A DNA stretch of 64,000 nt from NCBI GenBank assembly GCA_009729775.1, contig GCA_009729775.1_4081.1. The stretch is one strand, 5' to 3'. Positions 33,049-44,309 of this stretch are shown one piece after another. The position numbers were made by a program, and so were the translations under genes. Source of the DNA: Escherichia coli (GTDB lineage Bacteria; Pseudomonadota; Gammaproteobacteria; Enterobacterales; Enterobacteriaceae). Within the stretch, counting starts at the first letter, position 1; every line of letters starts with the position of its first letter. A model generated the notes under the pieces. That model was given only the letters and a program-made list of their open reading frames with translations, searched no databases and had not been told where the DNA came from.

Positions 33049-33239
33049 TAACATTTTATTCGTAATACCCCTTTATCGAAGTCGCTAAGGTTACCCGCCC
33101 TTTAGCCCCCTACGCATTTTGCCATAGTCCAATCCCTTTTATTTCAAAAAAGTCAAGGGATTACCTATGCATTTTTTTAACGCATAATTTTAAAAACGCC
33201 TTGACTTTTTTCTGAATCAGTACTAGATCCCTTTACGCA

Positions 33240-33449
33240 TTAATCCTTCGTTACGCTAACGATTATCTGTGTATCCCCGTAGTCCTGCCATACTTCCACG
33301 CCATCCGTCGCCCTGGTTAGTCGTGCTGTCATCTGCTTAACAGTCTTAGGCTTTAGTGGAACCTGTTGCAGTACTGTACGCATAGCATCACTGACGTTAT
33401 CATGTACGCCAGCAATAGTACCTAGAACGCTGTATACTGTATAGAACAT
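33240..33449 (-). CDS. hypothetical protein
   Basis: 69 aa ORF. Confidence 0.5.
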   Translation of the reverse strand: MFYTVYSVLGTIAGVHDNVSDAMRTVLQQVPLKPKTVKQMTARLTRATDGVEVWQDYGDTQIIVSVTKD

Positions 33450-33517
33450 ATGTATGCCCTCCTGATATAGTTAAGGCCGCTAGAGAGCGGCCTATGATGT
33501 TTGGTGATGTGTAATGC

Positions 33518-33919
33518 TTATAGTCCTAAGATAGTGCGTGCTTCGTTACGTTCCGTCCATAGCTGCATGATGTGAGCAAGTAAGTCCTTACTAATGTATC
33601 CGGTGTTCATAGCTTCACGGATAGATACATCATAAGCACCGAACCCCGTGCGAACGATACGCACATCATTTAGGTTAGTGTTATAGATACCGCCAAGATC
33701 AACGGCTTCGAATACTGCATCAACTGAATACTCATTGTTACCATCGTTGAAGTTTTCTAGTGCAATAGTATTGGATACCGCCCAACGTTTGCAGTTTCCA
33801 ATGATGCGGCATTGTTCCGGTTGGAGAGTGCCATTACTTACAGCGTACTCCAGTGCATCTTTACCAAAAGTCCGAGCCAGTACTAAAACGTCAGCGAAGG
33901 AAGTGATTGAGAAGGTCAT
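33518..33919 (-). CDS. hypothetical protein
   Basis: start at MTFSITSF with GGAG RBS; track MVLP extension is translation of 5' hairpin. Confidence 0.6.
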   Translation of the reverse strand: MTFSITSFADVLVLARTFGKDALEYAVSNGTLQPEQCRIIGNCKRWAVSNTIALENFNDGNNEYSVDAVFEAVDLGGIYNTNLNDVRIVRTGFGAYDVSIREAMNTGYISKDLLAHIMQLWTERNEARTILGL

Positions 33920-33939
33920 GATAAAACTCCTTAATTTAG

Positions 33940-34010
33940 GAGGGAGAACCATTTCCCCCTCTCTATGTAAAACATTATACTTGATTCTAAGTACTATGCA
34001 AGTACTTTTT
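33940..34010 (-). promoter_or_regulatory. early promoter cassette: TTGCAT-16-TATAAT followed by GC-rich 5' hairpin
   Basis: reverse complement reads TTGCAT..TATAAT then GGGGGAAATGGTTCTCCC stem-loop then RBS. Confidence 0.55.
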
Positions 34011-34335
34011 ACATTTTAATACCTGGATTCAGGTAGCGGTGAGATCCGTATTCTGGATCTGTTTCGGTCCAGTACTGTAAATCTATAGTACCCTTTGCGT
34101 TAATCTTGTCTACTAGCTTATTCATCTTAGTGTAGACTACTTCGCTAGGGATGTAGTGTAATCCTTTATTATAGAAGTAGTGGTTAGCTTCACTATCGTT
34201 TAAGATATAGCGTGCACCGTTTGCGGTTTGTGCAACAATGAAAGAGTATTCTACTTCCCGATCATTACCATCAACAGTAATGCGGTCGAAATTGGTACGG
34301 ATGAAAGCTTTAACGATAGCGATTGAAGTACTCAT
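34009..34335 (-). CDS. hypothetical protein
   Basis: 108 aa ORF. Confidence 0.55.
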   Translation of the reverse strand: MSTSIAIVKAFIRTNFDRITVDGNDREVEYSFIVAQTANGARYILNDSEANHYFYNKGLHYIPSEVVYTKMNKLVDKINAKGTIDLQYWTETDPEYGSHRYLNPGIKM

Positions 34336-34469
34336 GGTGAATCTCCTAACTTTGTGGGCCGTCGCACCATTGCCGCCCTACGAGATACATTATTGCAGTA
34401 CTGATATACTTTGTCAATACTTTTTTTGAAATAGTTTTGAGTACTGGAATTACATCCACCAGCAGATAG

Positions 34470-34590
34470 TTACTCACCGTTATGAACTATCTTACAGATA
34501 CTTCTCTGCACCCTGTGGGCTAGTTTTTGTCTATGCGTATATAATAGCAAAGGGACTGACCGGAGTCAATCCCTTTTTTTATTCTTTTTT
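34470..34590. repeat. repeated intergenic composite element (GCACCCTGTGGGCTAG core and AAGGGACTGACCGGAGTCAATCCCTTTTTT hairpin)
   Basis: near-identical copies at about 36390-36510, 39760-39870, 43790-43920. Confidence 0.6.
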
Positions 34591-34591
34591 G

Positions 34592-34792
34592 TTAGATGAT
34601 TCTCCAATCTTCTACCAGGATTTTAATATACCGTACCAGTGATTCGAGTGATTCCACTTCCCGATAATCGGTAGCCGTTTGCACGGAACAAGTACAGCCG
34701 ATCAAGCCATTGCCAAGCTCTTTGATCTGTACATCGATGCAGTTGGCTTTTGCTTCATTCAGTACTGCAACCAATTCGTTAGCGATTGACAT
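34592..34792 (-). CDS. hypothetical protein
   Basis: 66 aa ORF with upstream promoter cassette. Confidence 0.5.
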   Translation of the reverse strand: MSIANELVAVLNEAKANCIDVQIKELGNGLIGCTCSVQTATDYREVESLESLVRYIKILVEDWRII

Positions 34793-34810
34793 AATGTTTT
34801 ACTCCTAAAG

Positions 34811-34875
34811 GTGCGGGAGAACTATTCCCCCGCTCTATGTAAAACATTATACATTATCTTGTAGTACTGTCAAAT
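34811..34875 (-). promoter_or_regulatory. early promoter cassette (TTGACA-16-TATAAT) and 5' hairpin
   Basis: reverse complement of intergenic region. Confidence 0.55.
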
Positions 34876-34880
34876 AGTTT

Positions 34881-35138
34881 TTATGAGATATCTTCGATAT
34901 AGTCGGCCCATGTCATTTGTTCAGTACTATCGAGTGCACCAGGATTATTTGGATCAAACCATTCGCCATCCCCTAAGTACATTGCAGCGGATACCGCTTT
35001 ATAGCCATTATAGGCGTTATTCCACTGCATAGCACGATAGATATGGCCTTTAATTGGTGTTAGTACTGGTAACGTTTTATGGTCTTCTACGTAGGCTGTA
35101 GCGATTGGATTTACCCGATACGTTTTGAACTGTTCCAT
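34881..35138 (-). CDS. hypothetical protein
   Basis: 85 aa ORF. Confidence 0.5.
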   Translation of the reverse strand: MEQFKTYRVNPIATAYVEDHKTLPVLTPIKGHIYRAMQWNNAYNGYKAVSAAMYLGDGEWFDPNNPGALDSTEQMTWADYIEDIS

Positions 35139-35212
35139 GATGTTTCCCCTTTAGTTAGTAAAGTTAATACAACAGTACTATCACGCATTGTCAATAGTAC
35201 TGAAATAAAACT

Positions 35213-35437
35213 TTAGATTAGATTATTGATGCCGTTGATGGTAGACTCGCTTTCTTCTTTCTCCCATTGGCGGTAATACTTCCATGCTTCATGATAGGTG
35301 GCGATCAGTTCATCTTTTTGATCCTGAGTACATGCCAGTACTGAATCACTGTAAGCGGTGTTATAGATAGAATCAAATGATTTCTTCTCTTCTGCCAGGG
35401 TAGCTACTTCCCGCATCAGTTCATCAAAGTTAGCCAT
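35213..35437 (-). CDS. hypothetical protein
   Basis: start at MANFDELM; track extension covers 5' hairpin. Confidence 0.55.
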   Translation of the reverse strand: MANFDELMREVATLAEEKKSFDSIYNTAYSDSVLACTQDQKDELIATYHEAWKYYRQWEKEESESTINGINNLI

Positions 35438-35454
35438 TTTAGTACTCCTTATTA

Positions 35455-35520
35455 GTGGGGGAGGATATCTCCCCCTATGCAAAACATTATACTTTGTTTT
35501 ACTTACAATGCAAGTACTTT
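35455..35520 (-). promoter_or_regulatory. early promoter cassette (TTGCAT-16-TATAAT) and hairpin GGGGGAG-atat-CCTCCCCC
   Basis: reverse complement of intergenic region. Confidence 0.55.
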
Positions 35521-35712
35521 TTAAATTTTATTTCCGATATAGTCCGGCCTGTTCTTTTCGGTCATACGCTTAAGCATTTTTTGCATATGGCTTATTGCTT
35601 GTAGTGTATCCTCTTCCAGCGATGAATCAAGATAATCAGGATCATTCTTCACCTTACAATGATTATGATAGCGTAGTACTGCCAGTACTTTTTTAACTTC
35701 TTCAACTGTCAT
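35521..35712 (-). CDS. hypothetical protein
   Basis: 63 aa ORF. Confidence 0.45.
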   Translation of the reverse strand: MTVEEVKKVLAVLRYHNHCKVKNDPDYLDSSLEEDTLQAISHMQKMLKRMTEKNRPDYIGNKI

Positions 35713-35981
35713 AATAAGTATTCCACTTCGTTTGCTTTCAGGTTAGTATCAATCATCAGTGGCTTTTTGTAGTCCACAAAACGATTAGTTTTTTCGATAG
35801 CGAAGCCCATATAATCCAGCTTGCTTACCGTGCATTCATTCTTAAAAACTTCTTTCGCTGCATTGATGGCTGATTGCAATGTTAACCGACCATCTAAGTT
35901 AATGTTTCCAAATGATCCACCAGCAGAAGTAGGATTACCGTTCATATCTTTAATGATCATAGTTGCGGAGTAGCTAGACAT
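35709..35981 (-). CDS. hypothetical protein
   Basis: 90 aa ORF. Confidence 0.55.
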   Translation of the reverse strand: MSSYSATMIIKDMNGNPTSAGGSFGNINLDGRLTLQSAINAAKEVFKNECTVSKLDYMGFAIEKTNRFVDYKKPLMIDTNLKANEVEYLL

Positions 35982-36002
35982 AATTTTGTTTCCTTTTAGT
36001 AT

Positions 36003-36062
36003 CGGGGAGAACTATTCTCCCCTTGATGTAAACTATTATACAGTACTGATATACTTTGTCAA
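36003..36062 (-). promoter_or_regulatory. early promoter cassette (TTGACA-16-TATAAT) and hairpin GGGGAGAA-tagt-TCTCCCC
   Basis: reverse complement of intergenic region. Confidence 0.55.
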
Positions 36063-36065
36063 TAC

Positions 36066-36287
36066 TTAATTACGTTTAAAATGATATGTACCTTTATCAT
36101 CCTGTACGCCCCATACTGATTTACCATCAACGCCAGTGAAGCCGGATTGCAATTCAATATGGAAACCATTATTATCAACTACAAAAACTTTTTTATTTTC
36201 ATCCCGATAACATTGATATTCTGAATCAACATTAAAGGCCGCATCATTCAGAAGATTGGAAGCGTAAATGCAAGTCATTGTAGTCAT
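36066..36287 (-). CDS. hypothetical protein
   Basis: start at MTTMTCIY; track MVLP extension is hairpin. Confidence 0.55.
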   Translation of the reverse strand: MTTMTCIYASNLLNDAAFNVDSEYQCYRDENKKVFVVDNNGFHIELQSGFTGVDGKSVWGVQDDKGTYHFKRN

Positions 36288-36389
36288 GATTTTATTCCTT
36301 ATTCTTTGAGGGAGAACCATTTCCCCCTCTCGATATAAAACATTATACTTGATTCTAAGTACAATGCAAGTACTTTTTTAAAAATAGTT

Positions 36390-36510
36390 TTCAGTACTGA
36401 ATACTTATATAATAGATACACTTCCGCACCCTATGGGTCAGTGAGTTATCTCTCAATGAATATATAATAGCAAAGGGACTGACTGGAGTCAATCCCTTTT
36501 TTAATCTTTT
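36390..36510. repeat. repeated intergenic composite element, copy 2
   Basis: as above. Confidence 0.6.
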
Positions 36511-37095
36511 TTATCGTGTTATAGTTATCGCGTTAACATCACGTTTTTTATAGTACTGATTCCAGATATTGCGGGTTAAACCGTAATCAAGTACTTTAAT
36601 CAAGCCGTTGCGATCCTGGCCGATATTCTGTTTTCTGATATCTCTTATCGTTAGTGTGGATAATGTATCATCAACGTGATTGAGAGCATCAGCGAAATGG
36701 TGATGGCGTTCAATAGTGTTACGTTTAATATTGTACTTTAACTCATTACATGCGGTTACGTGCTTTACACTGCCTTTGCTTGCAGTACTCAAACGATCCA
36801 TAACAATAAACAGATTATCAGGATCGCATAAATGCATATGCACCTTGGCAAAGAACTGTTTAAGGTGCGGACGGTCATAATCTAAAAAATTCCATACCTT
36901 ACATTCAGTTTCATTTTGTTCTACACCCGCATCACAATTCGCGACCTTAATCACTAACCGATCATTTAAAGCGAATACAATACGGGAAGAACCCGCACCG
37001 ACGATCTCCAGTCCAGCTAACCGACAAGCTGAAAGGATCTCTTTGTTGGTTTCCATTGCATGAAGTGAACGGATGAATTTAGTATAGTTACGCAT
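36511..37095 (-). CDS. putative protein kinase-like protein
   Basis: Gly-rich loop GAGSSRIV, VIKV lysine, IRDIRKQN (HRD-like), DYG (DFG-like); start at MRNYTKF with GGAG RBS. Confidence 0.45.
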   Translation of the reverse strand: MRNYTKFIRSLHAMETNKEILSACRLAGLEIVGAGSSRIVFALNDRLVIKVANCDAGVEQNETECKVWNFLDYDRPHLKQFFAKVHMHLCDPDNLFIVMDRLSTASKGSVKHVTACNELKYNIKRNTIERHHHFADALNHVDDTLSTLTIRDIRKQNIGQDRNGLIKVLDYGLTRNIWNQYYKKRDVNAITITR

Positions 37096-37126
37096 TGTGT
37101 TGACTCCTTGAGTTAATGAAACTATA

Positions 37127-37369
37127 TTACAGTACTTTACTATCAATGGCAACTACTTTTTTTACTTGAACTGCGTGGAATACTTCACGCGTATTTTTAG
37201 TACTGAATACTTTTGCCGTACCTTGTTCGACCGCAATACGATAGCGACCGTTAACGTCCACCATGTTGATAAAGTCCGGTGTACTGAATGGAGTTACCCG
37301 GCATTTAAGAACGGTTAACAGTTCCACCAGCGTGGTAGTCTCTTTGATACGTTTTTCTAAAGTAATCAT
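37127..37369 (-). CDS. hypothetical protein
   Basis: start at MITLEKRIKE downstream of TTGACA-17-TACTAT. Confidence 0.5.
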   Translation of the reverse strand: MITLEKRIKETTTLVELLTVLKCRVTPFSTPDFINMVDVNGRYRIAVEQGTAKVFSTKNTREVFHAVQVKKVVAIDSKVL

Positions 37370-37426
37370 TTTGTTTTCCCCGTGTTGGTATGCATTCATA
37401 GTACTAAAACATTTGAGTACTGTCAA

Positions 37427-37645
37427 TTAGATAATAGAATATTTCTTTAGTGATAATGCGTCTTCTGTCGGTTGATATTCTACACCGTTCCCGTTATCAA
37501 CCTTAGTGAGTAAACCTTTATCAATGAGTTTTTTGATGGTACGGTTTCCCTGTTGAAAACTAGTGAAGTGTGAATCATTACGAAAGGTATAACCGTGCTT
37601 CACTGCTTCATCAATAGTTTTCTTTTCGATTTTAGATAATTTCAT
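37427..37645 (-). CDS. hypothetical protein
   Basis: 72 aa ORF. Confidence 0.5.
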   Translation of the reverse strand: MKLSKIEKKTIDEAVKHGYTFRNDSHFTSFQQGNRTIKKLIDKGLLTKVDNGNGVEYQPTEDALSLKKYSII

Positions 37646-37703
37646 TTTGTTTCTCTCTCTCTGTGTTGGTATAGATACATAATACTAAAACATTTGAGTA
37701 CTG

Positions 37704-37958
37704 TCAACGTGATATTAGTTTTATTTTTTTATTGTATTGTTGGTGTTCATATAGATTAATTTTTCCAGTACTCTCGATCACTATTCTATTGTTAGTGTCT
37801 ACATCGATAACACGTAGTTTCCCGTTGCTTAACTTCCTAGGCAATAGACTACCATTAATAAACTCATTAGCAAGCTGTACGGCCTTTGTGATGATTCTCT
37901 GTGGTGCTTTATAGTGTACCCGCAAGATATTATCTTTAGATAGTTGTACCTTCATCAT
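37704..37958 (-). CDS. hypothetical protein
   Basis: 84 aa basic ORF. Confidence 0.5.
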   Translation of the reverse strand: MMKVQLSKDNILRVHYKAPQRIITKAVQLANEFINGSLLPRKLSNGKLRVIDVDTNNRIVIESTGKINLYEHQQYNKKIKLISR

Positions 37959-37973
37959 TTTAGTTTATCCTAT

Positions 37974-37998
37974 AAAAAAGGCGGGAACTGAACCCGCC
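37974..37998 (-). terminator. rho-independent terminator
   Basis: GGCGGG-aactgaa-CCCGCC hairpin followed by U-tract on minus strand, after stop of 38022..38426. Confidence 0.55.
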
Positions 37999-38021
37999 GT
38001 GTTGTTAGTACTGCAAAGTTA

Positions 38022-38417
38022 TTAGATAACCTGGCGGCGTTTACTGTATACTGTTACACGGTTTCCTTTACGGTCATGACGGATCTCTTTCTGGTTACGA
38101 ATCAGTTCACTTGGACGCTTAAGGTTTGCCAGGTGATCCGCGTGAGTCCATGCATTACTATTCACTTGTACTTGAATATCAGAACCTTCCAAGAAGTCAT
38201 CTTGAGCGTTCAGTACTTCAGCCAGTTCTTGAGCTTTCTTCAGTTCTGCTTCAGTAAGTACTGGTTCAGGTGAATTCACAATATCAGAGATCTCTTTGAA
38301 CTGTACCGCCCAGCGTTGTCCTTTCGGTGCATCTTTGCCCATGTCTTTAAATGTTTCACCTTCTTCACGGGCAACGATGCGAGCTTGTTCACGGGTAGCG
38401 AAGAATTTAGTAATCAT
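38022..38417 (-). CDS. hypothetical protein, paralog of 50213..50479
   Basis: shared FATREQARIVAREEGETFKDMG and HDRKGNRVTVYS segments. Confidence 0.6.
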   Translation of the reverse strand: MITKFFATREQARIVAREEGETFKDMGKDAPKGQRWAVQFKEISDIVNSPEPVLTEAELKKAQELAEVLNAQDDFLEGSDIQVQVNSNAWTHADHLANLKRPSELIRNQKEIRHDRKGNRVTVYSKRRQVI

Positions 38418-38516
38418 GGTGTACATCCTATTAGTTAAGTTAATTAGTACTACAAGTTAGAGTCTATTATAAAGTACTATCTGGGTAATGTCAAATAGTA
38501 CTTTAAATGGATTCTA

Positions 38517-38840
38517 TTACATGTCTTTCTTACGTTTTACATCGTAGTAACGAACTGTAATTTCTTTGTTGATCTCTTCCTCAATTCTGTGTAGTACTTT
38601 CTCTTTCGGGTTGAAACCTATTACAGTTTCTTTAATGATCTCCAAGCCCGTGTATTCGCCTTGTGTACCGTAACCGTAAGTAAAGGTTTCATGTCCCAGG
38701 TCTTCCCAGCGGTCACCAATCAATGCAGACACGTAGCATGAGTGGTAAGTATTGCCGTGGCTATCAGTCCACCGATTAACTTTAATGTCAAAGGAAGTTA
38801 CAATTTTCATTTCTACTTTCTGGGTAAGGATCATAGCCAT
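38517..38840 (-). CDS. hypothetical protein, paralog of 45141..45485
   Basis: shared GNTY, YGYG and C-terminal VKRKKD motifs. Confidence 0.6.
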   Translation of the reverse strand: MAMILTQKVEMKIVTSFDIKVNRWTDSHGNTYHSCYVSALIGDRWEDLGHETFTYGYGTQGEYTGLEIIKETVIGFNPKEKVLHRIEEEINKEITVRYYDVKRKKDM

Positions 38841-38861
38841 TTTAATTTCTCTCTTTTAGTT

Positions 38862-38927
38862 AGGAGGGGAACCATTCCCCTGCCTTGATGTAAACTATTA
38901 TACAGTACTAAGATACTTTGTCAATAC
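38862..38927 (-). promoter_or_regulatory. early promoter cassette (TTGACA..TATAAT) and 5' hairpin
   Basis: reverse complement of intergenic region. Confidence 0.5.
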
Positions 38928-39129
38928 TTATTTGTTTTCTTTTCGTAATTTCTTTTCAGCTTCAACTACATTCTTATTTGTGCAAACTACTTCATCGGAT
39001 AAATCTAACTTCCATCCAGACAGGGGTTTGGTTTGTTTCTTTGCTGCTTTGTTCGCTTTCATGATGTTTCCTTTTTAATTAAGATGTAAACTATTATACA
39101 GTACTAAGATACTTTGTCAATCTATTTTA

Positions 39130-39330
39130 TTAGATAGTTTCCCATTTCATGTTACCCGCTTTACGCTGTGAAACAGGAATAAACATGTTATTAATGTTAC
39201 TAATATAACCGACCTGTAAGTCACGCTGTGAACCATATGCCCGACTTGCTGCATTTTTAGCACCGCGTTCTGATTTATAAACGCCGCTGGATACTGTAAA
39301 GCCTACTACACCGAAAGTAAAATGTTTCAT
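39130..39330 (-). CDS. hypothetical protein
   Basis: 66 aa ORF; two tandem promoters upstream. Confidence 0.5.
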   Translation of the reverse strand: MKHFTFGVVGFTVSSGVYKSERGAKNAASRAYGSQRDLQVGYISNINNMFIPVSQRKAGNMKWETI

Positions 39331-39524
39331 TTTGTATTCCTCTTTGTGGTTGATGTAAGTATTATACTCGTTTACTTTCTATTGTCAATCTTTTTTATCA
39401 GGGGAGTTTTTCGTATGTCTTACTCCTGGACTACTTAACGGGGTTACTTGTTTCGTTCCCCGTCCTGATGTAAAACATTATACTTGATTCTAAGTACAAT
39501 GCAAGTACTTTTTAAAAATAGTTT

Positions 39525-39689
39525 TCACTTACTCATATTAACAGGCTTAAACGGTGGCAATGTAAGATCATGCGGGGTTAAACTGTCATGCTTTGCCCAC
39601 ATACCAGAATCCCTACGGAATAATACCTTATTGTTTTTTATACGATAAAAGTTACCATTATCAGTGTTTTTATACCATACCATTTTCAT
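39525..39689 (-). CDS. hypothetical small protein (not in ORF track, below 60 aa)
   Basis: 54 aa ORF MKMVWYKNTDNG... with TTGCAA-16-TATAAT and GGAG RBS upstream. Confidence 0.4.
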   Translation of the reverse strand: MKMVWYKNTDNGNFYRIKNNKVLFRRDSGMWAKHDSLTPHDLTLPPFKPVNMSK

Positions 39690-39759
39690 TTACTCCTGGT
39701 TATGTCGTTATTAAACATTATACGGGGTTATAGATAGTTTGCAATTAGTTTTTCAGTAC

Positions 39760-39870
39760 TAGCCACCAGCATATAATAGATACATTTATGCACCCTGTGG
39801 GCTGATTTGTTTCTATGCGTATATAATAGCAAAGGGACTGACCGGAGTCAATCCCTTTTTTAATTCTTTT
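39760..39870. repeat. repeated intergenic composite element, copy 3
   Basis: as above. Confidence 0.6.
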
Positions 39871-40019
39871 TAAACTTGTTTTGGGTTGCGATATGTGATA
39901 GCGTTCGGGTACATTTGTTTAATGTTATTCCATGCCTGGTTAACATTGTAACCACTTGAGCGAATCAGTTGGTTACTACCGACACCTTGAAACACTACTT
40001 CGAATAAGAATTCTTTCAT
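39870..40019 (-). CDS. hypothetical small protein (below track cutoff)
   Basis: about 49 aa ORF MKEFLFEVVFQG...; ATGA overlap with upstream ORF. Confidence 0.3.
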   Translation of the reverse strand: MKEFLFEVVFQGVGSNQLIRSSGYNVNQAWNNIKQMYPNAITYRNPKQV

Positions 40020-40189
40020 GCTTTCACCTCGCGATCTGCTTTACCTTTACGCCACGCTGTTGCTAATTGTTCGCGTTGCCATAAGTCGAGTGATACGTAA
40101 AGTTTTGCATTATCACCCTTCGGATACTCGCCAGTAGTACCAATCCGATAAAACAGATCTTTCAGTACTGATAATTCCACCTGGATCAT
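40016..40189 (-). CDS. hypothetical small protein (below track cutoff)
   Basis: about 57 aa ORF MIQVELSVLKDL... Confidence 0.3.
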   Translation of the reverse strand: MIQVELSVLKDLFYRIGTTGEYPKGDNAKLYVSLDLWQREQLATAWRKGKADREVKA

Positions 40190-40297
40190 TGTATTACTCC
40201 TGATTGTGTTAGTACTTCTACGATGGCATGAATGATCATAAGTACAGCTAACACAACAATCATCGGATTCATTTGCATAAGCTGTACTCCTTATATA

Positions 40298-40510
40298 TTA
40301 ATCTTTCAGCCAATGATCTTGAATGAATTTTTCACAGAATCCCTGTTTCATAGATTCTAACAGGCGTTCACGGTGAGCGGCGGCATATTGCTCAGTACTA
40401 TGCGTTACGCCAGGTTGATAACGTGAAACACCGTCTGGTCCGATATATTGAACATCCCACGGTTTTTCGTTAGTATCAGACCATTTACGAACGATTAGTT
40501 GACCTTGCAT
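40298..40510 (-). CDS. hypothetical protein
   Basis: 70 aa ORF with promoter cassette and AGAGGA RBS. Confidence 0.55.
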   Translation of the reverse strand: MQGQLIVRKWSDTNEKPWDVQYIGPDGVSRYQPGVTHSTEQYAAAHRERLLESMKQGFCEKFIQDHWLKD

Positions 40511-40527
40511 GTTTCTTTCCTCTTAGT

Positions 40528-40587
40528 GGGGAGAATCATTTCTCCCCTTCATGTAACTTATTATACAGTACTAGATTACATTGTCAA
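40528..40587 (-). promoter_or_regulatory. early promoter cassette (TTGACA-16-TATAAT) and hairpin GGGGAGAA-tcat-TTCTCCCC
   Basis: -35 at 40582-40587, -10 at 40560-40565, hairpin 40528-40547 (coordinates on plus strand). Confidence 0.6.
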
Positions 40588-40593
40588 TAGTTT

Positions 40594-40917
40594 TTATTCA
40601 CCTTGTTTGAATATAGTTTTCTCCATTGATTCCATGATTGCAACCAATACAGCATGGATCTCACTTAACGCGGCATCACTAAAAGCATTAATGAATAGGC
40701 AATCATTCTCGCGAATATTTTTAATGTACTTATCAGCAGTGGTTGCGAATTCATTCAACGGCAGATCAAATGCTTTATCCCATAATGGATGGCGTAACTG
40801 TAACAGTACTGGATTATCACGGTCACCAGGTGAGAAAGTGCCTGTAATGAAACATACACCAGGGATACTTTCGAATTGACAACGAACTTCTTTTGTGATA
40901 GTAGTATGAATATACAT
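40594..40917 (-). CDS. hypothetical protein
   Basis: 107 aa ORF. Confidence 0.55.
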   Translation of the reverse strand: MYIHTTITKEVRCQFESIPGVCFITGTFSPGDRDNPVLLQLRHPLWDKAFDLPLNEFATTADKYIKNIRENDCLFINAFSDAALSEIHAVLVAIMESMEKTIFKQGE

Positions 40918-40944
40918 TTATTTTTATCCTCTATTAAATTAATA

Positions 40945-41133
40945 TTACAGTTTATGAATCAATTCTTTATCCAAGCGATAGCGAACATTATTGATTGTAA
41001 CTGCATTGTTTTTAATGCTACGCTGTACAGGTCCACCAGCAATAACAAACGTTGCCTTATTGCCCCGAACGATGATAGCACTTCCAGGATTACCGAAATC
41101 ATCTTGTACTAAAATGCTTGATAAGTTTTGCAT
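40945..41133 (-). CDS. hypothetical protein
   Basis: 62 aa ORF. Confidence 0.45.
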   Translation of the reverse strand: MQNLSSILVQDDFGNPGSAIIVRGNKATFVIAGGPVQRSIKNNAVTINNVRYRLDKELIHKL

Positions 41134-41149
41134 TTGTCTTTCCTTGTAG

Positions 41150-41208
41150 TGGGGAGAACTATTCTCCCCTTCATGTAAACAATTATACAGTACTGAAAAC
41201 TAATTGCA
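41150..41208 (-). promoter_or_regulatory. early promoter cassette (TTGCAA..TATAAT) and hairpin
   Basis: reverse complement of intergenic region. Confidence 0.5.
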
Positions 41209-41212
41209 AGTA

Positions 41213-41569
41213 CTATGATAAAATCATTATAGGATATTCACTATCAATCAGTACTTCAAAACCAAAACTTTCATACCATTCTTTAAGATTAAATGAGTTA
41301 TCTTCTCCCGTATCGCATTCTAAGATGATACAATCTGAATCATCGGCCGCATCAATAAAGGCATTCATTAATTCAGTACCTTCACCGTTACCGCGATTAT
41401 CGGGATCAACATAAAGAGAATCAATAAACGCTACACGATCATAATCAAGATCTGGTGCAACAATGCCACGTTTAACAAACCAGTACTGCAATTGTGCTAC
41501 TTTGCCTTGTACTTGATAGCCAGTGATCTCACCATTGTCTGTAGTACGCGTGATATGTTGTATACCCAT
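41213..41569 (-). CDS. possible GNAT-like acetyltransferase (weak)
   Basis: segment VAFIDSLYVDPDNRGNGEGTELMNAFIDAA resembles GNAT acetyl-CoA binding motif. Confidence 0.35.
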   Translation of the reverse strand: MGIQHITRTTDNGEITGYQVQGKVAQLQYWFVKRGIVAPDLDYDRVAFIDSLYVDPDNRGNGEGTELMNAFIDAADDSDCIILECDTGEDNSFNLKEWYESFGFEVLIDSEYPIMILS

Positions 41570-41632
41570 GATTTCAATCCTCAGTTAAGATATAAAATAT
41601 TATACACTAACTAACAGTACTGTCAATACTTT

Positions 41633-41890
41633 TTATCTCATAGATCTATGCCAACAATTACGCGGTTGACGTTTAAAAATACTATCATGATCCTCCTGGC
41701 AAGTTATGCAGTACTTACATCCCTTAACGGCCTGGCGACGTTTCTCAGGGATTATATCACCGCAGTCGAGGCAATGTATCAGTGATTCTATTTGTGCGTT
41801 AATTTGCGTTCTAGCGTGGTTAACAGCGGCCTGAATCACTGCGTTAATCTCGTCTTGCTCGGCCCCATCTTTCGTGAATCCTACAGCCAT
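41633..41890 (-). CDS. TraR/DksA-family C4 zinc-finger protein
   Basis: CLDC-x17-CITCQ (C-x2-C-x17-C-x2-C) signature in 85 aa protein. Confidence 0.6.
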   Translation of the reverse strand: MAVGFTKDGAEQDEINAVIQAAVNHARTQINAQIESLIHCLDCGDIIPEKRRQAVKGCKYCITCQEDHDSIFKRQPRNCWHRSMR

Positions 41891-42119
41891 TATTTTAACC
41901 TCATTATAAAAATACTATAGTACTGTAATGCGACAATAATATTACTTGTTCTTACTTTTTCCAATCCACATGATACAACATATTCATCCCCATATGTTCG
42001 AAACGAAACACCATGAAAATTTTTATACACTTGCACTTCTAATCATAACCTTTTGTCTAACCAACTGCGTAGAATTATACTACTTTACGCAAATTGATCA
42101 AGTATTGATCAGATCATTT

Positions 42120-42200
42120 TTTGATCAATATTATACAGTTACATTTGTGCACCCTATGGGTTAGTGCCTTGTGTCCGGCTTATGTACTTATTATACAGTA
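42120..42200. repeat. variant element with GCACCCTATGGG core and CCGGCTT hairpin
   Basis: similar to 50110-50200. Confidence 0.4.
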
Positions 42201-42221
42201 CTTGATGATATTGTCAATAGT

Positions 42222-42419
42222 TTATTTTAATTTTTTTCTGTCATTGATTAATGCTTTCAGTACTATACTAATAACTTGCAATGATTCATCAATGACTATA
42301 AAATTATTTTCTTTCATTAGATGATAGTTACCATTGATTGTATATTCTAATGAGTACTGTTTACGTTTAATTTTTGATAATGTATCAATTTGTTTTTGTA
42401 CTGATTTCATGCTAATCAT
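42222..42419 (-). CDS. hypothetical protein
   Basis: 65 aa ORF. Confidence 0.45.
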   Translation of the reverse strand: MISMKSVQKQIDTLSKIKRKQYSLEYTINGNYHLMKENNFIVIDESLQVISIVLKALINDRKKLK

Positions 42420-42526
42420 TGTTAAACGTCCTGTAATGCATTCTAACGAGATAAACGGTTTAGTACTGGCATTGTATAGGGTAAATGATTAAAGCCCACC
42501 AGCGTTAACCAGTGGGCTATAATCTT

Positions 42527-42670
42527 ACATCTTGCGGATAATCTTAACAGTATCTTTCACCGATTTACCGTCTTGCTGACATTGTTCGATCATCGCGTAT
42601 TGTTCTGCGGTCAGATCCTCGCCAGTTTTTGCCAGTACTGCGTCGATGAATGAATCCAGTGCGATCATTT
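42527..42670 (-). CDS. hypothetical small protein (below track cutoff)
   Basis: 47 aa ORF MIALDSFIDAVLAK... Confidence 0.3.
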
Positions 42671-42767
42671 TATTTCTCTCTTAGGTTAAGTTAACTACTG
42701 TTGATAAAAGTTATTATACAGTACTATCAAACATTGTCAATAGATTTAATAGTACTGGTAATATATT

Positions 42768-42947
42768 TTAGCGGTAATCGTCGTATGCTTTATTAACCTG
42801 GCGAATGTAACTTTCAAAGGCTTCGTCTACCGTTTCATACTCCCGAACATAATCACCATAGGAAACTACATACATCCCTTTTTGATCTTCAAACGTCATG
42901 ATGATAGAATCCAGTCCGATGATTTCAGTTTTTGCGATAATAGCCAT
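42768..42947 (-). CDS. hypothetical protein
   Basis: start at MAIIAKTEI; repeated promoter cassette upstream. Confidence 0.5.
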   Translation of the reverse strand: MAIIAKTEIIGLDSIIMTFEDQKGMYVVSYGDYVREYETVDEAFESYIRQVNKAYDDYR

Positions 42948-43038
42948 TTTAGTATTCCTTAAATTAATATGCGTTGTCTTGATAAAAGTTATTATGCCAG
43001 TACTATCAAACGTTGTCAATAGTACTGTGATAATATTT

Positions 43039-43251
43039 TTAGTTAATGATAGTCAGTGTAAAATTGTAATCCCCTGCCTGGTATAGTACTTTATCGCCGA
43101 ACGTGCCAACACGTTTCATATTGCAATAGATACCCATAACATTTTTTACATCTTTGATATTCCGAACGCCAGTGATATCCTTGTTGAAATTTTCATGATC
43201 AGAAAATAAAACTTGTTTTGCATTTTTCAGTACAGTGCAGATATTAGCCAT
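43039..43251 (-). CDS. hypothetical protein
   Basis: 70 aa ORF. Confidence 0.5.
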   Translation of the reverse strand: MANICTVLKNAKQVLFSDHENFNKDITGVRNIKDVKNVMGIYCNMKRVGTFGDKVLYQAGDYNFTLTIIN

Positions 43252-43270
43252 TTCGATTTCTCTCTGTTAG

Positions 43271-43338
43271 TAGGGAAGTACTGTTACTTCCCGTGCCTTG
43301 ATGTAAACTATTATACAGTACTATAATCTATTGTCAAA
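43271..43338 (-). promoter_or_regulatory. early promoter cassette (TTGACA-16-TATAAT) and hairpin GGGAAGTA-acag-TACTTCCC
   Basis: reverse complement of intergenic region. Confidence 0.5.
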
Positions 43339-43351
43339 CTATTTTTTAATA

Positions 43352-43693
43352 TTATTCAAAATCTTCTGGACCGGACTGATAATCATCCTCACCGTATGCA
43401 CTTTCTAACTTCTCGCCAGTGTAATCATCAGTTAGTGAGTCATCCTCATAGTTCACGTCTACGCCCGTGATGTAAAACTGGCTATCGTCTGGATCATTGA
43501 AATTAATTTTCTGAATGTTTACAATAACTGTATTGATACCCAGGACACAGCCATCAGCCGTTACAAAGTACTGATATTTTTCACATCCACCACTATTGAA
43601 ACCGTAATTGATTTCGGCCCGACCATCATTTAAACGCAGTGCCTGAGCGATGATTTCGTTTTCAAAGTTAGATTGAGCAATTGCAATAGTCAT
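43352..43693 (-). CDS. hypothetical acidic protein
   Basis: 113 aa ORF. Confidence 0.55.
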   Translation of the reverse strand: MTIAIAQSNFENEIIAQALRLNDGRAEINYGFNSGGCEKYQYFVTADGCVLGINTVIVNIQKINFNDPDDSQFYITGVDVNYEDDSLTDDYTGEKLESAYGEDDYQSGPEDFE

Positions 43694-43789
43694 GATTCGT
43701 TTCCTTATTACCAGGGGAAACCGTTTCCCCTTGCGATGTAAAACATTATACGCCTATTGATATAGTTTGCAAGTACTTTTTATCAAATA

Positions 43790-43920
43790 CTTTAAAATAG
43801 TTTTCAGTACTCAATCATTATACAATAGATACACTTATGCACCCTGTGGGCTAGTGAGCTATCTCTCAATGAATACATAATAGCAAAATGGCTGACCGAA
43901 GTCAACCACTTTTTTTCATT
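43790..43920. repeat. repeated intergenic composite element, copy 4 (more diverged hairpin)
   Basis: as above. Confidence 0.5.
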
Positions 43921-44054: not shown

Positions 44055-44139
44055 TAAATCACCATAAAGAATAGATAGGTTACTAACAATGCCGCCAGTA
44101 CTGCACCGACCAGGGCCGAACTATAGTAAGCTAATGATT

Positions 44140-44292: not shown

Positions 44293-44309
44293 TTTGTTTC
44301 TCCTAGTAT

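What the first reader, a model, noticed from the sequence alone, without database searches (positions are those of the whole stretch)
33960..39520. Near-identical 45-bp promoter segment in three places
The segment GTAAAACATTATACTTGATTCTAAGTAC[AT]ATGCAAGTACTTTT occurs almost identically at about 33965-34010, 36335-36380 and 39475-39520, in front of unrelated genes. Longer blocks are shared between 36300-36510 and 43700-43920. This indicates recent duplication or recombination of regulatory cassettes.
Basis: seen in the sequence. Interest (0 to 1): 0.5.

Follow-up and report, generated by a model that had tools for sequence, protein, structure and literature searches.

The report
Repeated early-promoter cassettes in jumbo phage
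The three near-identical 43-base segments are three of about forty host-type (sigma-70) early-promoter cassettes packed into the 20-kb terminal repeat of a 121Q-like jumbo coliphage, and these cassettes are also where small early genes are gained, lost and swapped between related phages.

Summary
The 43-nt segment occurs at 33967-34009, 36335-36377 (1 mismatch) and 39470-39512, with 0 matches expected by chance. Spacer and flanks are shared, not only the hexamers.

The window is from an Asteriusvirus jumbo coliphage (121Q/G17-like). On the minus (gene) strand the segment reads A-tract/AGTAC, -35 TTGCAT, 16-nt spacer, -10 TATAAT, GTTTTAC, +1 A.

It is one spacer subtype of about 40 co-oriented cassettes. 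All lie in about 33.1-52.9 kb, which maps onto the roughly 20.7-kb direct terminal repeat. About two thirds carry a G-rich 5'-UTR hairpin before the ribosome-binding site. Wobble-pair counts (48 G.U, 0 A.C) and compensatory changes indicate the hairpin is selected in the RNA.

Recombination between cassettes is supported. In 121Q the copy-2 ortholog has a different 16-nt spacer between identical flanks. Also, 35 of 47 synteny-block edges against three relatives fall at cassettes (8.8 expected).

"Recent duplication" is not supported: the copies sit at orthologous sites in relatives about 7-10% diverged.

The closest known kind is the PeSL cassettes of T4-like phages. This is a variant with the stem-loop inside the transcript.

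Seen in passing: extreme AGTACT enrichment, oriented Chi sites confined to the repeat, and two unassigned RNA elements.

The parts
33920..34010 (-). Cassette copy 1. UP-like AAAAAGTAC 34010-34002; -35 TTGCAT 34001-33996; 16-nt spacer; -10 TATAAT 33979-33974; discriminator GTTTTAC; inferred +1 A at 33966; 5'-UTR hairpin 33965-33937; SD AAGGAG. The ATG of the 133-aa gene (33518-33919) follows directly.
   Evidence: hairpin -15.9 kcal/mol, z -2.0; antisense -11.9, z -1.0
36288..36378 (-). Cassette copy 2. UP 36378-36370; -35 36369-36364; -10 36347-36342; inferred +1 at 36334 (transcript starts AUCGAGAGGG, as at T7 A1); hairpin 36329-36308; SD. The 73-aa gene 36066-36287 follows.
   Evidence: hairpin -14.2 kcal/mol, z -3.0
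39470..39513 (-). Cassette copy 3, promoter part only. UP 39513-39505; -35 39504-39499; -10 39482-39477; inferred +1 at 39469.
39392..39469 (-). 78-nt structured non-coding leader transcribed from copy 3. Predicted three-way junction: closing stem AUCAGG/CCUGAU, hairpin ACGGGG/CCCCGU, hairpin GGAGU/ACUCC with a 14-nt loop AAGNCNNANGAAAA. Paralogs lie at 49977-50056 and 47322-47405.
   Evidence: 2 compensatory pairs; -20.9 kcal/mol, z -2.8; no Rfam match
39331..39388 (-). Second, hairpin-less promoter in tandem behind the leader (TTGACA-16-TATAAT, 12/12; -35 39388-39383, -10 39366-39361) with SD. It drives the 66-aa gene 39130-39330.
36379..36512 (-). The 'longer block' next to copy 2. Order on the minus strand: A-run; terminator hairpin AAAGGGATTGACTCCAGTCAGTCCCTTT (36499-36472) whose 5' arm holds a -35 TTGACT; TGc-TATTAT extended -10 (36469-36464); a short transcribed unit with the conserved 12-mer CCCATAGGGTGC (36437-36426).
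   Evidence: (D11, D16)
43782..43928 (-). Paralog of the longer block (85% identical to 36378-36502). The terminator hairpin 43912-43885 has two compensatory pair changes relative to the other copies. 12-mer at 43850-43839.
   Evidence: hairpin pair changes read directly from the sequences
43694..43781 (-). Cassette of another spacer subtype (TTGCAA-ACTATATCAATAGGCG-TATAAT, -10 at 43750-43745) with hairpin. It drives the 113-aa gene 43352-43693.
33087..52911 (-). The whole array: about 40 co-oriented sigma-70 cassettes (-10 positions 33979 to 52525), about 10 intrinsic terminators and small, mostly ORFan genes. It is co-extensive with one copy of the direct terminal repeat.

Best explanation
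What it is. The three segments are members of one spacer subtype of a family of about 40 strong, host-RNA-polymerase (sigma-70) early-promoter cassettes. The cassettes fill the roughly 20-kb direct terminal repeat of an Asteriusvirus (121Q/G17-like) jumbo coliphage.

Anatomy, read on the minus strand. Each cassette has an A-tract plus GTA that resembles a proximal UP subsite. It then has a -35 TTGCAa or TTGACA, a 16-17-nt spacer, an invariant G followed by TATAAT, and a 7-nt AT-rich discriminator ending in TAC. The inferred start is an A, so transcripts begin AUCGAG, AUAGAG or AUCAAG. In about two thirds of cassettes a 7-9-bp G-rich/C-rich hairpin begins at +2 to +7. A Shine-Dalgarno sequence and the start codon of a small early gene follow.

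How it works (inferred). On infection, host RNA polymerase fires all of these promoters in one direction. About ten terminators then produce nested early transcripts. The hairpin acts in the RNA. Its most likely role is to stabilise or insulate the 5' end of each mRNA, and it may also damp read-through from upstream promoters.

Why three copies are near-identical. The cassettes share 50-100 nt of sequence, so they serve as homology for recombination. Short patches such as the 16-nt spacer are copied from one cassette to another. Single genes with their cassettes are inserted or deleted between neighbouring cassettes. The three copies share descent or conversion within one subtype; no requirement for that particular spacer sequence need be assumed.

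Shown here: the anatomy, the copy number, the location in the terminal repeat, RNA-level selection on the hairpin, the patch swap, and the placement of breakpoints at cassettes.

Inferred, not shown: promoter activity and timing, the exact start site, and what the hairpin does.

The confidence of 0.8 applies to the identification (an early-promoter cassette family in the terminal repeat that recombines). For the proposed role of the hairpin alone I would give about 0.4.
For: Promoter anatomy and copy number:
- 13 perfect 12/12 TTGACA-N16/17-TATAAT matches, all on the minus strand.
- 38 cassettes by a strict pattern, about 41 with degenerate ones.
- The information profile shows conservation beyond the hexamers: the A-tract, GTAC, G at -13 and TTTACAT.
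- Every cassette precedes a minus-strand ORF or a structured leader.

Start site:
- T7 A1 (T7 462-527, annotated as a promoter) has the same 7-nt discriminator length and the same first ten transcribed bases, ATCGAGAGGG, as cassettes 36347 and 51318.

Context:
- 96% identity to 121Q.
- G17 carries both repeat copies, offset 350,149, giving a 20,668-bp repeat that maps to window ~33087-52911.
- The copy-2 ortholog lies inside the annotated 'Direct Terminal Repeats' 1-21525 of vB_Ec-M-J.
- Published repeat lengths are 20,668 and 20,993 bp (PMC11895373, PMC13070987).
- Klebsiella phage fENko-Kae01 shows the same architecture inside its PhageTerm-defined repeat.
- Repeat genes include a GNAT acetyltransferase, a DksA/TraR zinc finger and a weak kinase-like protein, which fits early host-takeover functions.

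Hairpin in RNA:
- 23 of 35 window cassettes have a hairpin of -8 kcal/mol or better (most -10 to -17.5).
- In 56 distinct hairpins there are 433 Watson-Crick pairs, 48 G.U pairs and 0 A.C mismatches. The sense RNA is more stable than the antisense in 37, equal in 12 and less stable in 7.
- All 7 consensus pairs show compensatory double changes.
- Sense versus antisense folding of copies 1 and 2 agrees.

Recombination:
- The spacer patch swap at copy 2 in 121Q.
- The G17 ortholog of cassette 51318 carries the spacer of cassette 50069.
- Orthologs are mosaic, switching at the -35 or at the start site.
- One window cassette aligns to two cassettes flanking an extra gene in a relative at 34364-34425, 35475-35522, 35969-36067, 43687-43781, 44311-44375, 49233-49303 and 50806-50885.
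- 35 of 47 block edges lie within 45 nt of a -10, against 8.8 expected; 0 of 20,000 randomisations reach this.
Against: - No transcript data exist for this phage group in the searched library. Promoter use, timing and +1 therefore rest on consensus and on analogy with T7 A1 and T5.
- The -35 of the finding's own subtype (TTGCAT) matches only 3 of 6 consensus positions. The tool's promoter scan does not list these three copies.
- If +1 is as inferred, most hairpins start 4-6 nt from the 5' end. From memory, 5'-end protection needs a hairpin closer than that (no more than about 2-4 unpaired nt).
- One third of cassettes have no hairpin, so it is not essential for expression.
- Almost every intergenic gap holds a cassette. 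Any gene-sized indel would therefore end near one, so the breakpoint statistic alone does not prove cassette-mediated exchange. The overlap signature and the patch swap carry that claim.
- The hairpin set was selected by folding the sense strand, which biases it somewhat towards G.U pairs. Seven other 1x1 mismatches were nevertheless found and no A.C.
Confidence: 0.8

Rival explanations
1. Canonical PeSL reading. The stem-loop is mainly a transcription terminator or attenuator for polymerases arriving from upstream promoters. It keeps expression from piling up along the array. The cassette is then a promoter-terminator unit, not a promoter plus 5'-UTR stabiliser.
For: - In RB49/phi1 a Gn-loop-Cn stem-loop from a PeSL reduced lacZ expression about as much as rrnB T1 (PMC2839356).
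- The hairpins here have the same G-run/C-run style.
- ARNOLD, as used by the G17 annotators, called one cassette hairpin a terminator (L002 33234-33253).
- There are about 40 promoters but only about 10 canonical terminators, so some damping of read-through is plausible.
Against: - The hairpin lies downstream of the cassette's own inferred start. An efficient terminator there would also stop the cassette's own transcript, 15-25 nt before its ribosome-binding site.
- No U-tract follows the stem. The tails read CCUAAAUUAAGG, GAUACUAAAAGG and ACUAAGAGG.
- The tool's terminator scan lists none of the cassettes' G-rich 5'-UTR hairpins, whereas the true terminators with U-tails are found.
Confidence: 0.25
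2. The near-identity of the three copies reflects selection on every position of a composite binding site, with no recombination involved. In this reading the spacer and flanks carry operators for a phage or host regulator, for example at the embedded AGTACT/TGTACT motifs.
For: - AGTACT sits at fixed registers in 33 of 41 cassettes: start positions -27 and -7/-8 relative to the first base of the -10.
- It is 12-fold over-represented in the window.
- It is conserved above background between relatives.
- Orthologous spacers are mostly unchanged between genomes.
Against: - At least four unrelated spacer subtypes serve equally conserved cassettes.
- The copy-2 site tolerates a completely different spacer in 121Q.
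- Excluding swaps, spacer divergence between orthologs is about 4-5%, not far below that of neighbouring DNA (hand tally from the table; overall identity).
- Indel junctions with duplicated cassettes require recombination.
Confidence: 0.15
3. The inverted repeat after the promoter is a DNA-level operator: a palindrome bound by a dimeric repressor or roadblock that shuts off early transcription. It is not an RNA hairpin.
For: It lies at about +5 to +27, a classic roadblock position, and it is present at most early promoters.
Against: - The arms differ widely in sequence between cassettes while staying complementary. A single protein would not recognise them all.
- The 48 G.U against 0 A.C asymmetry, and the lower stability of the opposite strand, point to selection on the sense RNA.
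Confidence: 0.04
4. Assembly or annotation artefact, or a mobile element (MITE-like) that has recently spread in this one genome.
For: Short repeats of 45-125 nt can be collapsed or duplicated by assemblers.
Against: - The same copies occur at the same places in independently sequenced genomes: 121Q, G17, EC22.5-2, Turkey3, BF17, vB_Ec-M-J and others.
- The repeats have no terminal inverted repeats or target duplications. They are always co-oriented with the genes and in register with start codons.
Confidence: 0.01

Closest known systems
PeSL (promoter-early stem-loop) cassettes of T4-like phages RB49/phi1, PST/T4 and nt-1/KVP40 (Arbiol et al. 2010, PMC2839356; Comeau et al. 2014, PMC4122927)
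   Same: - A near-consensus sigma-70 promoter with an AT-rich upstream region.
- An adjacent Gn-loop-Cn stem-loop, with SD and start codon at the 3' end.
- Tens of copies concentrated in regions of small ORFan early genes.
- Single-gene insertions, deletions and replacements between close relatives end in the cassettes.
- A second cassette type here (TTGACT inside a terminator hairpin, then TGcTATTAT) matches the RB49 class with the stem-loop between or overlapping the -35 and -10.
   Different: - The host phage is a Rak2-like jumbo phage (Asteriusvirus), not one of the T4-like myoviruses in which PeSLs were described.
- The array fills the direct terminal repeat. It is not spread over internal hyperplastic regions.
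- In the main type the stem-loop always lies downstream of the inferred start, inside the 5' UTR, and has no U-tract. The five described PeSL classes all place it upstream of the start.
- Mini-circle formation and terminator activity are untested here.
- No paper in the searched library reports PeSLs in this phage group.
Strong early promoters of coliphages T7 (A1) and T5 (PN25, P26)
   Same: - Use of host sigma-70 polymerase, an A-rich upstream block and a perfect or near-perfect -10.
- The 7-nt discriminator and the initial transcribed sequence ATCGAGAGGG are identical to T7 A1.
- There is weak BLAST similarity of the UP/-35/-10 part to T5-like phages.
- TTGC-type -35 boxes and GTATAATAGATTCAT-like -10 regions are known in T5 promoters (from memory).
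- Early genes sit at, and are transcribed inward from, a genome end or terminal repeat, as in T7 and T5.
   Different: - T7 has three such promoters and T5 a few tens over a larger region. Here there are about 40 in 20 kb, roughly one per gene.
- The stereotyped 5'-UTR hairpin and the embedded AGTACT motifs are not features of the T7 or T5 promoters.
RpoD-like early promoters with UP-like element predicted in the Rak2-like jumbo phage vB_PcaM_CBB (Buttimer et al. 2017, PMC5259590)
   Same: - The same wider phage group.
- Promoters are concentrated upstream of short hypothetical early genes, some of them on the terminal repeat.
   Different: - Only 18 were predicted there, by MEME.
- That paper mentions no hairpin or stem-loop (one search found 0 occurrences of either word), and the passages read describe neither subtypes nor a role in recombination.
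5'-terminal stem-loop mRNA stabilisers in E. coli (ompA 5' UTR type; protection from RppH/RNase E 5'-end-dependent decay; recalled from memory)
   Same: A stable hairpin close to the 5' end of the transcript, upstream of the ribosome-binding site, selected at the RNA level.
   Different: With the inferred start site, most of these hairpins leave 4-6 unpaired nucleotides at the 5' end. Stabilisation has not been measured.
Host-takeover module in the terminal redundancy of Bacillus phage SPO1 (recalled from memory)
   Same: A terminal repeat packed with small early genes, many strong host-sigma promoters and a few terminators.
   Different: A Gram-positive host and unrelated sequences. No repeated promoter-plus-hairpin cassette has been reported there as a recombination substrate.

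Membership tests
PeSL cassettes (T4-like phages) | [quoted passage not shown] | tested here: met
   Consensus aaaAAAgtacTTGcaa-N16-G-TATAAT. 13 perfect 12/12 matches and about 30 more at 10-11/12 on the gene strand. Promoter activity was not measured.
PeSL cassettes (T4-like phages) | Adjacent stable stem-loop, typically Gn-loop-Cn | tested here: met
   23 of 35 cassettes have such a hairpin, of -8 kcal/mol or better, with compensatory changes. The four terminator-embedded promoters have the stem-loop between the -35 and -10.
PeSL cassettes (T4-like phages) | Stem-loop placed upstream of the transcription start (in the AT-rich region, overlapping or between the boxes, or just before +1), so that it acts only on incoming transcription | tested here: not met
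   In the main cassette type, including the finding's three copies, the stem begins at +2 to +7 of the inferred transcript. The feature is met only by the four terminator-embedded promoters at 34546, 36469, 39828 and 43882.
PeSL cassettes (T4-like phages) | SD and start codon of a (mostly ORFan) gene at the 3' end; copies clustered in plastic regions | tested here: met
   Most products have no Pfam match. The region aligns to relatives in 9-17 blocks separated by indels.
PeSL cassettes (T4-like phages) | Indels and replacements between close relatives have their junctions in the cassettes | tested here: met
   (35 of 47 edges; seven sites with a duplicated-cassette overlap; a spacer patch swap).
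PeSL cassettes (T4-like phages) | Stem-loop terminates or attenuates transcription; cassettes form excised mini-circles | not testable with these tools
   This needs reporter assays or Term-seq, and inverse PCR on infected cells. The absence of a U-tract argues against efficient intrinsic termination.
PeSL cassettes (T4-like phages) | The phage is a T4-like myovirus | tested here: not met
   GenBank taxonomy of the closest records is Caudoviricetes; Asteriusvirus. The group is only distantly related to T4-like phages, through core virion genes (PMC5259590).
E. coli sigma-70 promoter with UP element | -35 TTGACA-like, 16-18-nt spacer, -10 TATAAT-like, A/T-rich proximal UP subsite (AAAAAARNR, from memory) | tested here: met
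   In the finding's subtype the -35 TTGCAT matches 3 of 6, the -10 matches 6 of 6 and the spacer is 16 nt. The UP region is AAAAAGTAC in all three copies. Copy 2 has one more A upstream, which gives AAAAAAGTA and fits AAAAAARNR exactly.
5'-terminal stabiliser hairpin | Hairpin within a few nucleotides of the 5' end, selected in the RNA | tested here: inconclusive
   RNA-level selection is shown. The distance from the 5' end depends on an unmapped start site; it is inferred as 1-6 unpaired nt.
Direct terminal repeat (long DTR) early region of Asteriusvirus | The sequence is present at both ends of records that keep both copies, and lies within annotated DTRs | tested here: met
   G17 carries two copies at offset 350,149. 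DTR features are annotated in vB_Ec-M-J and fENko-Kae01. The termini of this particular phage were not determined.

The most novel reading that the evidence does not exclude
The cassettes may be more than strong promoters with recombinogenic homology. They may be wired into a phage-specific DNA code based on the palindrome AGTACT/CAGTACTG.

What the data show. The motif is 12-fold (6-mer) and about 94-fold (8-mer) over-represented. It occurs in all three reading frames. It is conserved above background between relatives. It is equally enriched in a Klebsiella jumbo phage of another genus. It sits at two fixed registers that abut the -35 and the -10 in 33 of 41 cassettes.

The reading this allows. 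A still unidentified phage factor, or a site-specific DNA modification, at AGTACT could switch the whole early-promoter array off or on at once. The same factor or modification could also act genome-wide, for example to mark phage DNA as self or to organise it.

The evidence neither shows nor excludes this.
Probability: 0.15. Interest if true: 0.75.

Novelty: new variant of a known kind. Interest (0 to 1): 0.45.

Why it matters
- Annotation. The public Asteriusvirus records examined here annotate no promoters. This gives a concrete map of about 40 early promoters and about 10 terminators for the terminal repeat, which is the likely host-takeover region.
- Genome evolution. It extends the PeSL idea of regulatory cassettes as homology for gene shuffling beyond T4-like phages. 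It adds a case where a 16-nt promoter spacer has been exchanged between otherwise identical flanks.
- Phage comparison. It explains why the early region is the most mosaic part of these therapeutic-candidate phages.
- Assembly. The repeats are a practical warning for short-read assembly.
- RNA biology. The stereotyped 5'-UTR hairpin, selected in the RNA, provides many natural variants of a candidate mRNA stabiliser or insulator in E. coli.
- Synthetic biology. The cassettes are candidate strong promoters for engineering.

Tried and rejected
- Rfam. No match on the whole window at gathering score, or on 33.0-53.5 kb at E<=1. No tRNAs were found. The hairpins, the 78-nt leader and the 12-mer units are not known RNA families.
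- Gram-positive origin. My first guess, from the low G+C and the strong promoters, was an SPO1/Herelleviridae-type phage. BLAST to 121Q excluded this.
- Plus-strand small RNA in the longer blocks. This was tempting because the plus strand shows a TATAAT and a strong T-run after the hairpin. I rejected it as the main reading for three reasons. The plus-strand -10 is degenerate in some copies. The hairpin has U.G and G.U pairs on the minus strand that would be C.A and A.C mismatches on the plus strand. The 12-mer always has the same orientation relative to an upstream promoter.
- Small ORFs. A short ORF across the 12-mer unit exists in one copy only. An in-frame AUG in the hairpin loop is not consistent between cassettes and lies too close to the G-run to be a start.
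- SlmA or LexA sites as an explanation for AGTACT. The core is shared with the SlmA site (from memory), but the flanks do not fit: G is the rarest base at -1. Only half of a LexA box is present.
- AGTACT pair spacing. There is only a modest excess at 20-24 nt, and it is mostly promoter-linked.
- IMG/VR scan for the 33-mer. It found only 121Q itself.
- Automatic ortholog comparison. It missed the 121Q copy-2 swap because the gene-start anchor was too diverged. The swap was confirmed by alignment.
- Literature. I found no transcriptome or start-site mapping for this phage group.

Full report
**1. The observation**

None is expected in shuffled sequence.

An alignment of the three sites with 150-nt flanks shows uninterrupted identity over about 47-50 nt. 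Copies 1 and 2 also share the next 45 nt or so. Copies 2 and 3 also share about 15 nt on the other side.

The longer block is also real. 36378-36502 and 43791-43915 are 85% identical, and two more copies lie near 34.5 and 39.8 kb (families D11 and D16).

**2. What the window is**

The region is about 96% identical to Escherichia phage 121Q and about 90% identical to G17, EC22.5-2, PBECO4 and others. All are Asteriusvirus jumbo phages of 350-385 kb. All ORFs from 28 to 52 kb are on the minus strand (GC skew). The segment therefore has to be read as its reverse complement.

**3. Anatomy on the minus strand**

Copy 1 reads AAAAAGTAC, TTGCAT (-35, 34001-33996), a 16-nt spacer, TATAAT (-10, 33979-33974) and GTTTTAC. 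Then comes A (33966), the hairpin GAGGGGGAAAUGGUUCUCCCUC, AAGGAG and ATG.

A simple pattern finds 38 such units on the minus strand between 33979 and 52525, and about 41 with degenerate ones. The tool's consensus scan finds 13 perfect 12/12 TTGACA-N16/17-TATAAT sites in this interval, all on the minus strand.

Aligned on the -10, 29 cassettes give the consensus aaaAAAgtacTTGcaa-N16-G-TATAAT-nnTTTacATc. High information content lies outside the hexamers: the A-tract, an invariant G at -13, and the TTTACAT around the start.

The A-tract plus GTA fits the proximal UP-element subsite AAAAAARNR. I recall that consensus from memory.

The start site is inferred. T7 promoter A1 has a 7-nt discriminator and a transcript beginning AUCGAGAGGG. 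I confirmed the sequence at T7 462-527, where it is annotated as a promoter. Cassettes 36347 (copy 2) and 51318 have a 7-nt discriminator followed by ATCGAGAGGG and ATCGAGAGCG.

The cassettes fall into at least four spacer subtypes (families D1-D7). The finding's three copies are the subtype T(A/T)GTACTTAGAATCAAG.

**4. The hairpin**

Of 35 cassettes in the window, 23 have a 7-9-bp hairpin of -8 kcal/mol or better (most -10 to -17.5), starting 2-7 nt after the inferred start.

I collected 56 distinct hairpins from the window and three relatives. They contain 433 Watson-Crick pairs, 48 G.U pairs and no A.C mismatches. The sense RNA is more stable than the antisense RNA in 37 cases, equal in 12 and less stable in 7. 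If the palindrome were selected as DNA, transitions should give G.T and A.C juxtapositions about equally often.

In an alignment of 29 hairpins, all seven consensus pairs include sequences changed on both sides with the pair kept. For copies 1 and 2 the sense 5' UTR folds at -15.9 and -14.2 kcal/mol (z -2.0 and -3.0). The opposite strand folds at -11.9 and -9.9 (z about -1). The hairpin is thus selected in the mRNA.

No U-tract follows it, and the terminator scan does not list these G-rich hairpins. That scan does find about ten U-tailed terminators on the minus strand.

What the hairpin does is inference. I favour protection and insulation of the mRNA 5' end. Attenuation of read-through is the main rival.

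**5. What each copy drives**

- Copy 1 drives a 133-aa ORFan.
- Copy 2 drives a 73-aa ORFan. Neither product gives a BLASTP hit to the other or to the copy-3 gene, and none has a Pfam match.
- Copy 3 is different. Its transcript begins with a 78-nt structured RNA of -20.9 kcal/mol, z -2.8. A second, hairpin-less 12/12 promoter follows, and only then a 66-aa gene.

The leader after copy 3 has paralogs at 50056 and 47405. In the 47405 type one hairpin has changed from GGAGU/ACUCC to CCAGU/ACUGG, which is two compensatory pairs, while its 14-nt loop AAGNCNNANGAAAA is kept. It has no Rfam match.

**6. The longer blocks**

On the minus strand each block has the following order:

- the stop codon of the upstream gene and an A-run;
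- a terminator hairpin, AAAGGGATTGACTCCGGTCAGTCCCTTT;
- GC-TATTAT;
- a short unit containing the invariant 12-mer CCCAYAGGGTGC;
- the next cassette.

The hairpin's 5' arm contains TTGACT. Seventeen nt downstream lies TGc-TATTAT, an extended -10. This is a promoter embedded in a terminator. It matches the RB49 PeSL class with the stem-loop between the boxes.

The copy at 43912-43885 has two compensatory changes. Its wobble pairs exist only on the minus strand, so the terminator works on the gene strand. This is read directly from the sequences.

**7. Genomic context**

G17's record keeps both terminal repeat copies. The same genes occur at 18621 and at 368770, which gives a 20,668-bp repeat. 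Through the alignment diagonals this maps to window ~33087-52911.

- The ortholog of copy 2 lies inside the annotated Direct Terminal Repeats (1-21525) of vB_Ec-M-J.
- Published repeat lengths for this genus are 20,668 and 20,993 bp (PMC11895373, PMC13070987).
- All cassettes lie inside this interval.
- Its genes include a GNAT acetyltransferase, a DksA/TraR-type zinc finger and a weak kinase-like protein. fENko-Kae01 annotates a putative protein kinase in the same place.
- In fENko-Kae01, a Klebsiella phage of another genus with PhageTerm-defined ends, the repeat has the same architecture. About 40 co-oriented cassettes are transcribed inward from the physical end. Intergenic gaps occur only inside the repeat.

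**8. Recombination**

I chained BLAST alignments of the repeat against 121Q, G17 and EC22.5-2. This gives 9, 12 and 17 blocks.

Of 47 distinct block edges, 35 lie within 45 nt of a cassette -10. Random placement gives 8.8, and 0 of 20,000 trials reach 35. Nearly every intergenic gap has a cassette, so this statistic alone is weak. Three further results are stronger.

- At seven sites one window cassette aligns to two cassettes that flank an extra gene in the relative. The overlaps are 47-99 nt, for example 35475-35522 and 35969-36067. This is the signature of gene gain or loss between direct repeats.
- The window has its own inserts bounded by cassettes: 39527-39728, directly upstream of copy 3, then 40595-40945, 41178-41616 (the acetyltransferase) and 41901-42222.
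- Patch exchange is visible. At copy 2, the window and 121Q are identical for about 95 nt upstream through TTGCA and for about 45 nt from GTATAAT through the hairpin. The 16-nt spacer between them differs at 12 positions. It equals the spacer of a 121Q paralog about 7 kb away. G17 and EC22.5-2 have the finding's spacer.

Likewise, G17's ortholog of cassette 51318 carries the spacer of cassette 50069. Several other orthologs switch partner exactly at the -35 or at the start site.

**9. Age of the copies**

Copies 1 and 3 are present and nearly unchanged in all three relatives. Copy 2 is present in two of them. The aligned DNA overall is 91-93% identical. An IMG/VR scan finds the 33-mer twice in 121Q, as expected. 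The triplet is therefore old and maintained, not a recent duplication.

**10. Comparison with what is known**

The closest described kind is the PeSL of T4-like phages (PMC2839356, PMC4122927).

| Feature | Status here |
|---|---|
| Sigma-70 promoter with AT-rich upstream region | met |
| Gn-loop-Cn stem-loop | met |
| SD and ATG at the 3' end | met |
| Clustering with ORFans | met |
| Junctions at cassettes | met |
| Stem-loop upstream of the start | not met in the main type (stem-loop lies inside the transcript) |
| Phage is T4-like | not met |
| Terminator activity | not testable with these tools |
| Mini-circle formation | not testable with these tools |

I therefore describe the array as working like PeSLs and as a new variant. 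I do not file it as a plain member.

The library search found no report of PeSLs in this phage group. A related jumbo phage paper predicted 18 RpoD-like promoters with UP elements in the early region (PMC5259590). That paper mentions no hairpin or stem-loop (0 occurrences of either word). The passages I read describe neither subtypes nor a role in recombination. No start-site or transcriptome data exist for the group.

**11. Things seen in passing**

- AGTACT occurs 253 times against 21.6 expected. CAGTACTG occurs 60 times against 0.64 expected.
  - It is found in all three frames of ORFs (64, 36 and 60 sites) and is three times denser in non-coding DNA.
  - Sites are conserved in 86-93% of cases, against 68-75% for other hexamers.
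  - It sits at fixed registers next to the -35 and the -10 in 33 of 41 cassettes.
  - It is absent from 19-26 kb and 29-33 kb.
  - It is 14-fold enriched in fENko-Kae01 as well.
- Chi (GCTGGTGG) occurs 10 times against 0.57 expected.
  - All ten lie inside the repeat. Nine are on the gene strand. One is on the opposite strand, in an inverted pair about 0.6 kb from the mapped right boundary.
  - The pattern is conserved in 121Q, G17, EC22.5-2 and fENko-Kae01.
  - By the orientation rule quoted in PMC12315714, each physical end would meet a correctly oriented Chi within about 0.4-1.4 kb.
  - Terminally clustered Chi sites are known for P1 and some lambdoid phages.

**12. Verdict**

The finding is a real feature and its promoter reading is correct. 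It is best explained as part of a PeSL-like early-promoter cassette array in the terminal repeat of a jumbo coliphage.

Interest is moderate. It is a new variant of a known kind, with clean evidence for cassette-mediated exchange and for RNA-level selection on the hairpin. It also raises several unexplained motifs that deserve follow-up.

Noticed in passing
whole window; densest 33-56 kb; none in about 19000-26000 and 29000-33000: The palindrome AGTACT occurs 253 times against 21.6 expected. CAGTACTG occurs 60 times against 0.64 expected. It is found in all three reading frames of ORFs and is 3x denser in non-coding DNA. Sites are conserved between relatives in 86-93% of cases, against 68-75% for other hexamers. 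It abuts the -35 and the -10 in 33 of 41 cassettes. It is 14x enriched in Klebsiella phage fENko-Kae01 too. Two stretches of 7 kb and 4 kb have none. No known factor fits.
   Followed up: partly
34456, 35917, 37324, 39763, 41033, 42496, 46679, 51492, 52315 (minus strand); 52327 (plus strand): Ten Chi sites (GCTGGTGG) against 0.57 expected. All lie inside the terminal repeat. Nine are on the gene strand. One is on the opposite strand and forms an inverted pair (CCACCAGC-TTGT-GCTGGTGG) about 0.6 kb from the mapped repeat boundary. The same pattern is present in 121Q, G17, EC22.5-2 and fENko-Kae01. The orientation fits protection of both physical DNA ends from RecBCD.
   Followed up: partly
12-mer starts: 34519, 36437, 39801, 42160, 43850, 50150 (minus strand); 48324, 51619, 51835 (plus strand): Nine short promoter-driven units share an invariant core, CCCAYAGGGUGC, in which only the two middle bases vary. 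A 3-4-bp hairpin with a purine-rich loop (GAGAAA or GAGAUA) often precedes the core. The units sit at transcription-unit borders, after terminators. They are conserved in relatives, and fENko-Kae01 also has nine copies. There is no Rfam match and the function is unknown.
   Followed up: partly
39392-39469, 49977-50056, 47322-47405 (minus strand): A 78-84-nt structured leader RNA lies directly after three promoters, one of them copy 3. It has a conserved 14-nt loop, AAGNCNNANGAAAA, on a stem that covaries (GGAGU/ACUCC versus CCAGU/ACUGG). It is a candidate cis-regulatory or small RNA with no Rfam match.
   Followed up: partly
about 51320-53160: A stretch of about 1.8 kb has no convincing ORF, and the 121Q record leaves it unannotated. 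It holds promoter-like sites on both strands, the Chi inverted pair, many CAGTACTG copies and the mapped repeat boundary (~52911). GC skew changes sign here. It may contain the physical terminus and perhaps an origin.
   Followed up: no
about 28000-33020, minus strand: A tandem array of about 20 overlapping small ORFs of 66-96 aa lies just outside the repeat boundary. The ORFs share internal repeats, so they look like a paralogous family (families D9, D15, D18). They have no cassettes between them and almost no AGTACT.
   Followed up: no
36511-37152, 41213-41569, 41633-41890 (minus strand): Three genes in the repeat have recognisable domains. There is a weak protein-kinase-like match below Pfam's cut-off, and fENko-Kae01 annotates a putative kinase in the same region. 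There is a GNAT acetyltransferase, which is absent from G17 and EC22.5-2 at this site. There is a DksA/TraR C4 zinc-finger protein. All are plausible host-takeover functions.
   Followed up: partly
36334-36325 and 51305-51296 (minus strand): The first ten transcribed bases inferred for two cassettes (ATCGAGAGGG; ATCGAGAGCG) match the initial transcribed sequence of T7 promoter A1, and the discriminator has the same 7-nt length. This could be convergence on an efficient start or shared ancestry; it is unresolved.
   Followed up: partly
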